This document shows, piece by piece, positions 52,634 to 61,304 of a stretch of DNA of 64,000 nt. The stretch comes from Eledone cirrhosa. Taxonomy: Eukaryota. The notes under the pieces are model-generated. The model had not been told where the DNA came from. It did no database searches and was given only the letters and a program-made list of their open reading frames with translations. Position 1 is the stretch's first letter. Each line of letters begins with the position of its first letter. The position numbers and the translations under genes were made by a program. The stretch lies in assembly GCA_964016885.1 (NCBI GenBank), contig OZ024743.1, positions 321,780,001 to 321,844,000 on the forward strand, written 5' to 3'.

Positions 52634-52736
52634 CAGATCCTTTCTAACTTGACCGCTGCCACGTCACGATTCATAGCCATTTTTCAATGTATTCTTGGCG
52701 CGATCACTTTGGAAAATTAATTGTCTAAATTTGAGC

Positions 52737-52816
52737 TAACTCCTGAAGAGTCCGGTGCTCTAGATTTCCAATGTTATCGGATATCTTAAAATGCGGACGA
52801 AACCATGGTAGAGGTA
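52737..52816 (+). ncRNA. Type I hammerhead ribozyme HHR1 (Penelope-type)
   Basis: Core CTGAAGA at 52743-52749. Stem II GTCCG/CGGAC with extension AGATTTCC/GGATATCT. GAAA at 52799-52802. Palindromic stem III ACCATGGT. Cleavage triplet GUA at 52808-52810. Short stem I TAACTC/GAGGTA. Confidence 0.8.
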
Positions 52817-53140
52817 ACTAAATATGTTCACTTTCCTTCTAGTTTATTTTACACCTAATTCTGTTTAGTTGACTGTATATCTGGTCGATTTATATACGCT
52901 GTCGAAATACTCGATAAATACTCCGTCGCAACCGCCGCGAAGGGCTGCTTTCGGTTATTTGTCGGAGATTTCTTCATAGGAGCTTTTATTCTTATAGCTT
53001 GGTCTAATTGATTTTTTATATGGTTAATTATGCTAATTGGGAGAGGAAACGGTATATATTTTATCTGGTGATTCTCTAGACATGTTTTATGATATATATA
53101 TATAAATATATATATATATATAAATATAATAAAATATAAT

Positions 53141-53420
53141 AAAGCTTTTGAAGTACTTATCGTTATAAATATTTAAATAATTATTATGTATATAGGTATA
53201 TATTAATGAGCCAGTATGTTTAAGGTAAATAATAACGACGAAGATACAAATAAAATAAGATAATAGATTGAAGCATGTTAAGGATAAATATACACCTATG
53301 TATAATTGGGTGTAAAGGCGTCAAGGAAATTAACTATTTGGGTACCATTTTCTACTTCTAATTTAAGGTCGTACGTTTGAAAGAATTCTATTATACTTTT
53401 GTTAACTCTATTTAGTTCTA
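53141..53420 (-). mobile_element. Inverted, internally deleted copy of PLE1 (RT fragment fused to 3'UTR)
   Basis: Minus strand of 53317-53420 reads ELNRVNKSIIEFFQTYDLKLEVENGTQIVNFLDA and pairs with 53421-53498. 53141-53316 is the reverse complement of 55467-55638. Confidence 0.88.
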
Positions 53421-54577
53421 TAATAAGAATTCTTGAAAACGTACGACCTTAAATTAGAAGTAGAAAATGGTACCAAAATAGTTAATTTCCTAGACGCTAC
53501 CTTTAACTTAAACCCGGCTTCTATTACCCTTTTCATAAGCCTAATAAAAACTTAAATTATGTTAGTAACTATTCAAATCACCCTAGATCTGTAAAAAAAA
53601 GGCTATAGTAAATAGTGTGCAAAAACGTATTAATAAAATATCAGCTAATAAATATATTTTTGATAAAAACGCTGAATACTACAACAACGCGTTAAAAAGA
53701 GCAGGATATATGAATAATATAGAATATGTAGATAATAATAATCCAAGTATTATTCCTAATAATAATAATATAAATAATAACATATATAAGAGAAACTCTA
53801 ATAATTATAATTCTAACACCCATACGCTAAATAAATCGAGAATACGAACTAGATCTAAACCAGTCATATGATTTGCACCCCATGCTTCGGTCGCAGTTAA
53901 AACACCAATTGCAAAATTATTCTTTAAAGCTCTTGACACCTCTTTCCCTACTCCACATAAATACCATTCCATTTTTAATAGACATACCATTAAATTCTCA
54001 AATTCTACAACCAGTAATATGGCCCAAAACATTGCCAAATTAAACGCCAAATCCTAAAACCAAACCCAAATAATGATCATAATAATAGAGTTAACATAAA
54101 TGATACTAAACCAAAATGTAATTGTAGAAATAAAACTAATTGCCCTTTGCAAAATAATTGTTTAGATAGTAATTTGGTTTATAAATGCACCGTAAAAACT
54201 GATCACAAAACATACAACTACATAGGTTCGACCTCGTCCACATTCAAAGCTCGTTTTGCGATCCATAAAAGCTCATTTTCGAACTCTAAGAGGAAATCAT
54301 CCACGTCTTTATCACAGCTCATATGGTCATTAAAAGAGAAGAATTTAAAATACTCCATTCTTTGGACAAAACTTCGGAACTGTGGAATTTACTGCAACTC
54401 TAGTATATCAAATAACTGCCCGCTCTGTACAATGGAGACCCTGTTGATTATTAATAACTATGAGACCCTAATTAACAAAAAAGTGAATTATTCTCTAGTT
54501 GTCTCCATAAAGCTACGTCCACTTTTTTAGCCTTACATAAAACGAGAAAAAAAGACGCAATAACACCAAACCAATAA
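53421..54577 (+). pseudogene. PLE1: 5'-truncated Penelope-like (Naiad-like) RT C-terminus/thumb, Zn knuckle and GIY-YIG endonuclease, frameshifted
   Basis: Joined frames read KIVNFLDATFNL..YYPFHKPN..YSNHPRSV..KRINKISANKYIFD..YYNNALKRAGY..VI*FAPH..FPTPHKYHSIFNRHTIKFS..CNCRNKTNCPLQNNC..VYKC..YIGSTSSTFKARFAIH..CPLC..SELFSSCLH. Several frameshifts and a stop. Confidence 0.9.
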
Positions 54578-54838
54578 TAACTCGGTTACCATGAATATAT
54601 AATCAACAGTGAAAAACATTAATGGCCTTTAATATTGCTTTATTTTATAGCTATCTATAGAAGAAACAAAGCTCGAATGAATGACATTTGTTCAATAACA
54701 TGCCGGAACATTGATACACATAACATTATTTTGTTAACTTTGATCAATACCATCATTTCTTTATTTCTTTATTTCTCTATCTATCTTCCTATCTATGCTT
54801 ACAATTTAATATAATACCTAATCCTTACATATTTACGG

Positions 54839-55130
54839 AATTTATCTATAACTGTGAACTTTTAATACATTGTTGATCTATTTAAAATTTTAAATTTTTA
54901 GTTTAATACCCAATCCATAAATTTTTATGAAACTTATCTATAACTGTGAATTTTTAATGAGTTTTTGATCTCTTATTTATAGTATAATATAATATAGTAT
55001 ATGCATATACTTCTTTTAAATATATTTACTGCACTTTAAAATCTAAAATTTAGGACAGATTCAAACTTATATATAAATGTGAATTTTTGCTGCGCTTTTG
55101 ATCTCTTATTTATAATATAATGTATTATAA
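54839..55130 (+). repeat. Three degenerate ~60-bp direct repeats in the PLE1 3' region
   Basis: AA(T/C)TTAT(C/A)TATAA(C/A)TGTGAA(C/T)TTTT...TTGATCT recurs at ~54839, 54931 and 55063. Confidence 0.7.
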
Positions 55131-56207
55131 TATGTATGTAGTTATATATTATATTTTATATATTCTTAAATATTTTTAAATATACCTACCACATTTCTAT
55201 ATATATGATTCAAATATAGAGAAAATATCCAAACTAAAAATTATTATAGACATTATTTGAACTCTGAATTATCCATGCACTCATTATTGTTTCTCATATA
55301 TATATGTGTATTTAAATGTAACACGTTGAACTCTACTTTATAAAATTATAACTGTTATCATTTACCTAAAGTATACTACACTACTAATACCTAATATATA
55401 TCTATATATATATACCTCCCTATATCTAATAATATGTTGATATCTTGGTTGAAGAATAATTAGTACATTTACATCCAATTATACATAGGTGTATATTTAT
55501 CCTTACATGCTTCAATCTATTATCTTATTTTATTTTTATCTTCGTCGTTATTATTTACCTTAACATACTGGTTCATTAATATATACCTATATACATAATT
55601 ATTTAAATATTTATAACGATAAGTACTTCAAAAGCTTTACATACCTAATATGTTGATATTTTTGTTAAAGTTTAAATTTAGGTAAATAATCAACAGTATA
55701 ATATTTCATCCTTTATGTGCCAGCTAAATCCTTTAAATGTTACCCTCATAAAATTTAGAAGTTTAGAAATGATAACACACTTATCGAATTTATAAAAATA
55801 ATATATAAATAACCAGCAAATAATCCTGAAATCTGGAGTCTTCACCCTAATATTATAAATTAAATATTTTCAAATTTAACCGTTTAACTTTCGGAAAAAA
55901 TCTCCTACATATATCACCCCCCCCCCCCTCTTTATCTTTTCCTCTTTATAAATTCTTTTCCAGTGGTTATCACTGGCTGTTATGATTCATGAGATGTTTT
56001 CCTAGATATATCGTAGTATCATACATTTTAAAACTTTTAGAACAGTTACAGTAAGCAACGTTTTTTCTTACTCACACATTCTCTAATGAATTTATTACGT
56101 TTTCGCATTTTCTCATAATTAGGCTATGTAAGTAAAATTTTCTCTCGGGTTAATCACTACCTTCATTAAATCTTAACCATTTAACATCTCAGGGTATGTC
56201 ATGTATC

Positions 56208-60009: not shown

Positions 60010-60052
60010 CTAGCTTTTGACGGCAAAATTACAGGCACCAATAACACCAATA

Positions 60053-60300
60053 AAAAAATAAAATAAAATAAGATAGACTGGAATAAAAAATAAAAATAAG
60101 AATAGTCTATGTCAAAATTAAAAATTACTATTAAAAATTTATATATGTGGGGTATAGTATTTGATTATTATTTTATATCAACAAGTAAATAAAGGAAATT
60201 GCGAGAAAGGTTTATAAATGTAGAAAGACATATGACGTCATAGATTGTTTACAAAATCTCCGAAGGTTTGAACTAGTCTATCTTATTTTATTTTATTTTA
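60053..60300. repeat. Short AT-rich inverted repeat upstream of PLE2
   Basis: AAAATAAAATAAGATAGACTGG (~60053-60080) versus CTAGTCTATCTTATTTTATTTT (~60273-60300). Confidence 0.55.
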
Positions 60301-60463
60301 TTATTTTATTTTATTTTATTTTTAAAAAAACCTTTTTTATAATTATTATAATTATTTTTAATTTAATTTTTATTTTATTTTTATTTTATTAATACATTTT
60401 TTAAATACATTTGTACACTTCATAATCCAATTTTTAGCATTCAAACTCAATATGAAATAATTG

Positions 60464-60588
60464 TTTCTACTATTGGCACAAGGCCAGCAATTTGTCACAA
60501 GGCTAGTACATTACTGGTACTTTATTTTATCGACCCCGTAAGGATGAAAGGCAAAGTTAACCTTGGCGGGATTTGAACTCAGAATGTA
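60464..60588 (-). mobile_element. tRNA-derived SINE fragment (B box plus central domain resembling MetaSINE/cephalopod SINEs)
   Basis: Minus strand GAGTTCAAATCCC (pol III B box) followed by CTTTGCCTTTCATCCTTACGGGGTCGATAAAATAAAGTACCAG. Family assignment is from memory, not from a search. Confidence 0.7.
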
Positions 60589-60911
60589 CCCAGTTTCTTT
60601 ATTCTAGACATCTAATATTTGTATATTAGCACATTCACCTCATCAATTTATTTATTTATTTATTTAATTTTATTATAATATTTTTTTAGCCGTTATTCAC
60701 AGCTGTTATTTTCATTTTTGACAGCGTTCCCGATCAAAAGTATCTCTCTCTCTCTCACCTCCTTCTTTTTCTTTTTTCCTCTCTTCTATTTCTGTTTTCC
60801 TTTTTCCTTCTTCTTTTCTTTTCTTCATTTTTCCTTTTTTTTTCTCTTCTCATATGTTGACTGGATACGTTCTTGTTCACAAGTGTTTTTAGGTCTCATA
60901 TATTGTTATCT

Positions 60912-60978
60912 TATTTTATCTGATGAGAACACAATTTTTGTCCCAGGATGATGTTTTCGAAATGCGCATAATAAAGTA
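60912..60978 (+). ncRNA. Type I hammerhead ribozyme HHR4 (same family as HHR3)
   Basis: TATTTTAT-CTGATGA(60920-60926)-GAACACA..TGTTTTC-GAAA(60959-60962)-TGCGCAT-A-ATAAAGTA, followed by the same ~37-bp tail as HHR3 and then TA repeats. Confidence 0.85.
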
Positions 60979-61304
60979 TATGGAACTTTTTTAACCATCT
61001 TTTAATTTCTTCTTTATATTTATATATATATATAATATATATATATCTACATACATATATACATACATTTACGTATGTATATAGCTATGCATTTATACAT
61101 TTATATATATACATGCATTTATATTTAAGTGTGTTAGGATGTTGATATGATCTGTGTACTTCTTTAGTAAGGAGAAACATTTTGGCGCCAGATTTTATTA
61201 CCTAGGGAGATTAAATACCAGACCTCTGGCTGAAAGCTGACCGGGTTGTCAACCTCATCAAACACTAACGCCGGCCTGTTTGTATATATGTATGTGTGTA
61301 TGTA

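What the first reader, a model, noticed from the sequence alone, without database searches (positions are those of the whole stretch)
52634..61045. Nest of ribozyme-bearing, (TA)n-associated fold-back retroelements beside a satellite array
Seen: about 8 largely unrelated modules, mostly delimited by (TA)n tracts: 52634-53090, 53141-56408, 56600-57035, 57171-57361, 57470-58300, 58316-58485, 58700-60009 and ~60700-61015. Most share one layout: an inverted copy of part of the module, a hammerhead or hammerhead remnant, then a 3' end abutting TA repeats. Four hammerheads have intact cores. Known: Penelope-like elements carry minimal type I hammerheads in pseudo-LTRs and often insert with inverted partial copies. 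Inference: one microsatellite served as a repeated landing pad for several Naiad-like PLE families and their non-coding ribozyme-only dependants.
Basis: partly seen in the sequence, partly recalled or inferred. Interest (0 to 1): 0.85.

Follow-up and report, generated by a model that had tools for sequence, protein, structure and literature searches.

The report
Penelope retrotransposons stacked in TA repeats
Eight broken copies of seven abundant mobile-element families, four with intact self-cleaving-RNA motifs, sit side by side between TA repeats, likely because Penelope-type retrotransposons keep inserting into such repeats; this is mostly known biology, but one family may belong to an unnamed Penelope lineage.

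Summary
52634-61014 holds eight truncated modules from seven high-copy families: six carry inverted arms, four have intact type I hammerhead cores and four have remnants. Their 3' ends abut (TA)n genome-wide: 21 of 26 in a random sample, against a 2.3% background.

'Naiad' is wrong. Longer copies show RT upstream of a C-terminal GIY-YIG nuclease, and Naiads lack canonical hammerheads. Five modules (four families) carry Hydra-clade signatures. Two are non-coding tandem monomers of about 660 and 540 nt (retrozymes). The last, 57413-58297, has a Nematis/Neptune-type nuclease, but its RT motif A-B spacing is about 131 aa against about 60 in canonical clades. It is shared by dozens of homologs and matches no reference I saw.

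The seed tract is the internal TA of an older hAT-like element. The nest is dense but not unique: 5 of 80 random 10-kb stretches have four or more cores. The scan earlier noted a TA-targeted retrozyme-like repeat in another genome. Verdict: new members of known kinds, with one possibly unnamed PLE lineage.

The parts
1..52139 (+). 29-bp satellite array, degenerate over its last ~300 bp. No TA tract and no hammerhead in it. A neighbour, not a component.
   Evidence: four sampled stretches up to 80 kb upstream of the window are also pure array; 0 units in 800 kb of random sequence
52273..52633 (+). Left outer arm: inverted duplicate of the hAT-like element's left end plus 21 nt of its flank
   Evidence: 89% and 94% identity to 61497-61304
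52634..53091 (+). M1: 5'-truncated monomer of a ~660-nt non-coding tandem family (retrozyme-like). Intact hammerhead core at 52743 with palindromic stem III; predicted cut after 52810.
53092..53139 (.). (TA)n tract
53140..56408 (+). M2: 5'-truncated Hydra-type PLE. Inverted pieces 53140-53316 and 53313-53422; broken RT-end/linker/GIY-YIG frame 53427-~54700; ~1.6-kb 3' UTR; intact hammerhead at 56220 (predicted cut after 56257); main end 56313; tail to 56408.
56409..56600 (.). (TA)n tract
56601..57035 (+). M3: fold-back fragment (inverted 56601-56783) of a ~540-nt non-coding tandem family (retrozyme-like). Hammerhead core lost by truncation.
57036..57170 (.). (TA)n tract
57171..57361 (-). M4: fold-back 3' tip plus ~80-nt tail of a Hydra-type family. 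Holds the 3' half of a hammerhead whose family core reads as the U3-A8 variant.
57362..57412 (.). (TA)n tract
57413..58297 (+). M5: fold-back (inverted 57413-57817, with tail) of the last 39 codons and 3' UTR of a C-terminal-EN PLE whose RT has a ~70-aa finger insertion. Damaged hammerhead at 58138.
58298..58315 (.). (TA)n tract
58316..58570 (+). M6: fold-back 3' tip of the M8 lineage. Intact hammerhead on the - strand at 58411; tail 58486-58570.
58571..58698 (.). (TA)n tract
58699..60010 (-). M7: 5'-truncated Hydra-type PLE (RT end, linker, GIY-YIG at 60009-58990, frame broken). Hammerhead core deleted; main end 58764; tail to 58699.
60040..61014 (+). M8: 3' UTR of a Hydra-type PLE with a 5' inversion (60040-60273), an inserted SINE-like repeat (60456-60583), and an intact hammerhead at 60920
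61015..61497 (-). Likely seed: internal (TA)n tract (61015-61046) of an older hAT-like element (61047-61476, terminal repeat at ~61476) and its flank to 61497

Best explanation
The region is a stack of eight truncated copies from seven high-copy families of Penelope-like retrotransposons and non-coding hammerhead-bearing repeats, likely built by repeated target-primed insertion into a (TA)n tract that likely belonged to an older hAT-like element. Shown: family identity, domain order, 3' ends at TA, two alternative 3' ends (main end and tail), inverted arms and hammerhead cores. Inferred: a GIY-YIG nuclease nicks (TA)n; RT starts at one of two internal sites on the RNA, giving copies with or without a tail; cDNA stops early and re-primes or folds back, giving the inverted arms; each insertion leaves TA on both sides, so the target is renewed and other families land next to it. 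M1 and M3 would be copied in trans by a PLE protein (partner not identified). The window copies are broken remnants; no host function is implied.
For: Every module searched has at least 39 other copies among the 40 scored, from 1,600-3,300 first-look candidates. 3' ends run into TA, directly or after the tail, in 21 of 26 random-sample copies, 23 of 29 bystander copies and 100 of 136 top-hit ends; most of the rest continue into their own tail or next monomer. Background is 468 of 20,000. The SINE-like control abuts TA in 0 of 117. Each coding family shows two 3' ends 57-95 nt apart, like the tail tied to two RT start sites in vitro (PMC11167929). Hydra motifs match the paper's text and alignment. 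Other copies of the hAT-like element carry the same internal TA tract, either empty or holding M4, M5 or M7 relatives. The same families neighbour each other elsewhere, e.g. L008 and L010. Identity to the nearest relative held spans 85-98% across modules, which fits several waves of insertion. The TA-free satellite holds no insertion in 52 kb.
Against: No orthologous empty site or polymorphism was seen; the genome has no relatives here. Target-site duplications cannot be read inside TA. Two junctions have no TA (52633/52634 and 60010/60040), so target deletion or template switching must be added. The outer inverted arms are unexplained. As monomers the four hammerheads do not fold better than shuffles (z +0.6 to -1.3); that is expected for dimer-type motifs but gives no support for activity. 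For these seven families no random 10-kb stretch held more than three, so this nest is denser than any sampled, although the families were chosen from this window.
Confidence: 0.88

Rival explanations
1. The modules are Naiad elements and their ribozyme-only dependants.
For: Naiads prefer (TA)n, make inverted truncated copies and occur in cephalopods (PMC8557442).
Against: EN is C-terminal in all five coding families. The DK motif reads DKT or DKS, not DKA. Hammerheads are present. M4 and M6 are tips of coding families.
Confidence: 0.02
2. Elements insert without strong preference, and TA tracts grow afterwards from the AT-rich element ends, or insertions simply survive better in TA-rich DNA.
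For: Several main 3' ends continue in the element itself with ATAT or TATA. TA tracts cover 4.3% of the random sample.
Against: Both the main end and the tail end of each family meet TA. The TA tract pre-exists in empty copies of the hAT-like host. The SINE-like control never abuts TA. A (TA)n preference is reported for almost all Hydra families.
Confidence: 0.07
3. The nest is a satellite-edge structure: rearrangement or mis-assembly at the array boundary gathered or duplicated the pieces.
For: It begins 500 bp from an array of at least 130 kb. The outer arms duplicate 21 nt of flank in inverted orientation, and the distal half of the hAT-like element is missing.
Against: Seven distinct families, each 85-98% like dispersed copies. 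Comparable clusters occur in random non-satellite stretches (L215 has 8 cores, L204 has 6). It may explain the outer arms only.
Confidence: 0.05

Closest known systems
Hydra clade of Penelope-like elements (Craig et al. 2021, PMC8557442; e.g. Hydra-1_Obim)
   Same: C-terminal GIY-YIG, CxCX5C linker, no CCHH, DKT and an RWK-like motif (seen in the M2 family), divergent RT4(B), hammerhead near the 3' end, (TA)n insertion.
   Different: Four distinct families here, each high-copy, against one cephalopod family listed. The M2 family has a ~1.6-kb 3' UTR (the clade is described as generally under 3 kb). M2 and M8 linkers are Asn-rich. The M4 family has a U3-A8 core.
Non-LTR retrozymes of animals (Cervera & de la Pena 2020, PMC7229834; Li et al. 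2026 preprint 10.64898/2026.07.22.740005)
   Same: Non-coding, one type I hammerhead per monomer, head-to-tail partial tandems, low GC, co-occurring with PLEs.
   Different: Monomers of ~660 and ~540 nt exceed the 150-450 bp of the 2020 paper, though they lie within the preprint's 51-972 bp. Mostly dispersed, truncated, TA-targeted and fold-back rather than long arrays. Circular RNA not shown.
Nematis / Neptune PLEs (for M5)
   Same: C-terminal EN with a CX2-5CxxC linker and CCHH, a hammerhead, a tail, and TA insertion. The short linker most resembles Nematis.
   Different: RT motif A-B spacing is 131 aa against about 60-63; DKS instead of DKG; GGAIG/GGPIG motif B followed by a WW motif. Forms its own long-stemmed group apart from motif-defined Neptune-like and Poseidon-like sets. 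Nematis itself could not be put in the tree.
Naiad
   Same: (TA)n preference, inverted truncated copies, tail.
   Different: Naiads have an N-terminal EN, DKA, and no canonical hammerhead.
Minimal PLE hammerheads (Cervera & de la Pena 2014, PMC4209133)
   Same: Short palindromic helix III, opposite-strand pairs close together, and a U3-A8 core variant are all described there.
   Different: Nothing substantial.

Membership tests
Hydra PLE (M2, M4, M6/M8, M7 families) | RT followed by C-terminal GIY-YIG | tested here: met
   One 585-aa RT-EN frame for the M7 family (L148); ordered pieces for M2 (L142, L143) and M4 (L242, L251). For M8 only thumb-linker-EN was seen (L155, L156).
Hydra PLE | CxCX5C linker; CCHH absent | tested here: met
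   All four families.
Hydra PLE | DKT and RWK motifs | tested here: inconclusive
   DKT and RWR in the M2 family (L142); copies of the other three families did not reach that far 5'.
Hydra PLE | Divergent RT4(B), no IFD | tested here: met
   FDxxMGxxD in the M2, M4 and M7 families, 57-58 aa after motif A in the two measured; matches the Hydra rows of Fig S7 by eye. Not seen for M8.
Hydra PLE | Hammerhead near the 3' end and (TA)n insertion | tested here: met
Hydra PLE | RT phylogeny with published Hydra references | tested here: inconclusive
   M2, M4 and M7 families group at SH-aLRT 100 in a quick tree, but no published reference sequence was in it.
Naiad | N-terminal GIY-YIG | tested here: not met
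Naiad | No canonical hammerhead; DKA motif | tested here: not met
Non-LTR retrozyme (M1, M3 families) | Type I hammerhead in each monomer | tested here: met
Non-LTR retrozyme | Head-to-tail tandem monomers with no PLE ORF | tested here: met
   Periods 661-709 in 3 of 19 M1 loci (L049 gives 663 by BLAST) and 540-556 in 5 of 14 M3 loci. Shared upstream sequence ends within one monomer. PLE hits in 7 of 33 loci are neighbouring insertions.
Non-LTR retrozyme | Expressed as linear and circular RNA; self-cleaves | not testable with these tools
   Needs RNA data and an in vitro assay.
Nematis/Neptune (M5 family) | C-terminal EN with CX2-5CxxC linker and CCHH | tested here: met
Nematis/Neptune (M5 family) | Canonical short RT fingers (no IFD) and DKG | tested here: not met
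   131 aa in this genome; median 132 in 70 measurable homologs; 61-63 in 91 Neptune-like proteins; DKS in 44 of 70.
Nematis | RT phylogeny | not testable with these tools
   No Nematis, Naiad, Coprina, Athena or TERT sequence was available as a row.
hAT DNA transposon (host element) | Terminal inverted repeats at both ends and 8-bp duplication | tested here: inconclusive
   A left terminal motif with an NTCTAGAN-like 8-mer before it (the hAT label is recalled). No right terminus within ~8 kb in 4 of 4 long loci.

The most novel reading that the evidence does not exclude
M5 belongs to an unnamed, widespread clade of Penelope-like elements that combines a C-terminal Nematis-type nuclease with a conserved, telomerase-sized (~70-aa) insertion in the RT fingers. 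That breaks the published rule that only N-terminal-EN PLEs (Naiad, Chlamys) carry such an insertion, and it bears on where telomerase's IFD came from.
Probability: 0.4. Interest if true: 0.6.

Novelty: new member of a known kind. Interest (0 to 1): 0.33.

Why it matters
For annotation, such nests are common in this genome, are invisible to Rfam's hammerhead models and to Pfam, and mix Hydra PLEs with retrozymes. The random sample extrapolates to roughly 260,000 intact hammerhead cores genome-wide (69 in 0.8 Mb). Short fold-back tips can be mistaken for non-autonomous elements. If the M5 lineage is a separate clade, PLE classification gains a branch, and the finger insertion shared with telomerase is either older or more often gained than described. 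Near-intact frames exist for biochemical study (775 aa in L173, and unnamed proteins of about 1,050 aa).

Tried and rejected
Rfam found no hammerhead, only weak miRNA-type hairpin hits below gathering scores. Pfam gave nothing useful on the window frames and only sub-threshold RVT_1 on M5-family frames. Monomer folding was uninformative. I first read the linkers as Neptune-like (note) and dropped this after reading the Hydra section. The PDB sequence search gave one weak hit. The M5-family RT model (pLDDT 79.6; insertion well ordered) has telomerases among its top matches (Z 9.4, rmsd 4.3, 187 aligned), tied within 1 Z with LINE-1, R2 and other RTs, so homology of the insertion to the TERT IFD is neither shown nor excluded. 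A Naiad motif pattern found 0 matches in the genome (exact match only, no evidence of absence). Sequencing runs: no RNA holder listed. Contigs of three runs from one sample cover 52145-52421 at single-copy depth, but no listed piece bridges 52633, so the junction is unverified. The PLE partner of M1/M3 was not found; a 19-nt motif they share occurs in other non-coding copies but not next to a PLE frame. A covariation count on the M4 hammerhead was not obtained. Clade-constraint tests did not finish (11 rows skipped there and 3 by my motif filter). The satellite has no hammerhead. Earlier findings for this genome and for P0001: none.
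Full report
Setting. The window is G000:C4:321780001-321844000 of a 3.0-Gb genome. Bases 1-51839 are a 29-bp satellite, which also fills four sampled stretches up to 80 kb upstream. The nearest named relative of one encoded protein is an Octopus vulgaris hypothetical protein at 65%, so a cephalopod-like host is likely (inference).

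Observation. Self-alignment with TA masked and mapping against relatives give eight modules, M1-M8, with the edges listed under parts. A stem I/II/III descriptor finds exactly four intact type I hammerheads, at 52743, 56220, 58411 and 60920; three have palindromic stem III. Rfam did not detect them, and as monomers they fold no better than shuffles. PMC4209133 (passages) describes such short, palindromic helix III motifs as dimer-dependent and weakly active. The other four modules carry remnants. Six of eight have inverted arms.

Copy number and TA targeting. Each module search returned the full 40 scored places, from 1,616-3,275 candidates (these are not copy numbers). I drew 80 random 10-kb stretches from ten contigs of known length. 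Hits there extrapolate roughly to 10,000-100,000 copies for six of the families; M3 had 0 hits. 3' ends meet TA directly or after a tail in 21 of 26 random copies, 23 of 29 bystander copies and 100 of 136 top-hit ends, against a 2.3% background. Most top-hit exceptions continue into the family's own tail or next monomer. The SINE-like repeat inside M8 abuts TA in 0 of 117. The sample holds 69 hammerheads against 2 in shuffles, and 5 of 80 stretches have four or more, so the nest is in the dense tail but not unique. Against this, no random stretch held more than three of these seven families.

Clade. PMC8557442 (abstract, sections 3, 6, 11, 12, 15, passages and supplement parts) defines Naiads by an N-terminal EN and no canonical hammerhead. 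It defines Hydra by a C-terminal EN, CxCX5C, no CCHH, DKT, RWK, divergent RT4(B), a hammerhead and (TA)n insertion. Longer copies of M7 (one 585-aa RT-EN frame), M2 (with DKT and RWR) and M8 (thumb, linker, EN) show the Hydra pattern. M4 looked non-coding, but 10 of 11 loci found with an upstream probe link its end to a Hydra-type EN. In an alignment of nine M4-family copies the hammerhead core mostly reads as the U3-A8 variant, already reported for Schistosoma PLEs. Each coding family has two 3' ends, matching the tail that PMC11167929 (main text) ties to two internal RT start sites.

Non-coding families. M1 and M3 read through from their 3' end into their own 5' part and form partial tandems with periods of about 660 and 540 nt. 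Shared upstream sequence ends within one monomer, and no PLE frame belongs to them. This fits non-LTR retrozymes (PMC7229834, passages; preprint 10.64898/2026.07.22.740005, parts 1-3 of 5; its supplements are closed and could list related families). Expression and the helper PLE were not shown.

Seed site. 61047-61476 on the - strand is a copy of an older repeat with a hAT-like left end (label recalled) and an internal TA tract. Other copies have that tract empty or occupied by relatives of M4, M5 or M7, which stands in for the empty-site test. The left outer arm is an inverted duplicate of the same end plus 21 nt of flank; this is unexplained.

The M5 lineage. Its EN has a short CX4CxxC linker and CCHH, like Nematis, but the distance from RT motif A to motif B is 131 aa. 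Among 173 proteins fetched with this lineage, 70 could be measured: median 132, minimum 120; 44 have DKS; 36 show the C-terminal EN pattern. The library holds 356 representatives at E<=1e-30 to P0002. In 91 Neptune-like proteins the distance is 61-63. My hand counts from Fig S1 are Penelope 61, Nematis 63, Neptune 60, Naiad-1_Skow 87, human TERT 118 and Chlamys-1_tObl 122. The insertion has invariant residues and is modelled as ordered helices. Two quick trees place the lineage on its own long stem (support 99-100), apart from motif-defined Neptune-like, Poseidon-like and Hydra rows; the trees lack Nematis, Naiad, Coprina, Athena and TERT, and long branches meet. Atlas neighbours are RT clusters, some mostly nematode, so Nematis affinity stays open. 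Searches for 'Penelope-like' with Nematis/Hydra/insertion in fingers, IFD/GIY-YIG and Nematis listed no paper describing it; Repbase, Dfam and subscription papers were not searched.

Verdict. Novelty: new members of known kinds, interest 0.33. The open lead is the M5 lineage (probability 0.4 of being an unnamed clade).

Noticed in passing
window 52273-52633 and 61304-61497: The nest lies between inverted duplicates of the host element's left end, including 21 identical nt of flank. The right arm lacks 172 nt and the element's distal half is missing. A fold-back at a break in the TA tract is my guess; 14 of 780 random TA tracts have inverted flanks against 0-2 in shuffled pairings.
   Followed up: partly
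window 52634-61014: Identity to the nearest relative held is higher on the left (M1-M3 mostly 96-98%) than on the right (M4-M8 85-95%), as if the stack grew away from the seed tract. Limited by the 40 hits scored per search.
   Followed up: partly
L161-L240 (random sample): 69 hammerhead cores in 800 kb (2 in shuffles), from many families; L215 has 8 and L204 has 6.
   Followed up: partly
L104, L048, L245; window 60010-60040: Direct joins between different PLE families without TA, some in or next to the EN frame, suggest template switching or target deletion.
   Followed up: no
L173:4704-7028: Uninterrupted 775-aa frame of a sister family of M5, with the same 3' end style and its own hammerhead-like motif.
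   Followed up: partly
   Followed up: no
window 53740-53850; L153, L155, L156: Asn-rich RT-EN linkers in the M2 and M8 families recall the N-rich inserts of Adineta Penelope elements (PMC3846280, passages).
   Followed up: no
L156:6550-7500 and L253:1483-1845: Neptune-like and Poseidon-like PLE fragments (by motif) also occur in this genome; used only as tree outgroups.
   Followed up: partly
window 60456-60583: A very abundant SINE-like repeat (146 hits in 800 kb; label recalled) inserted into M8, so younger than M8.
   Followed up: no
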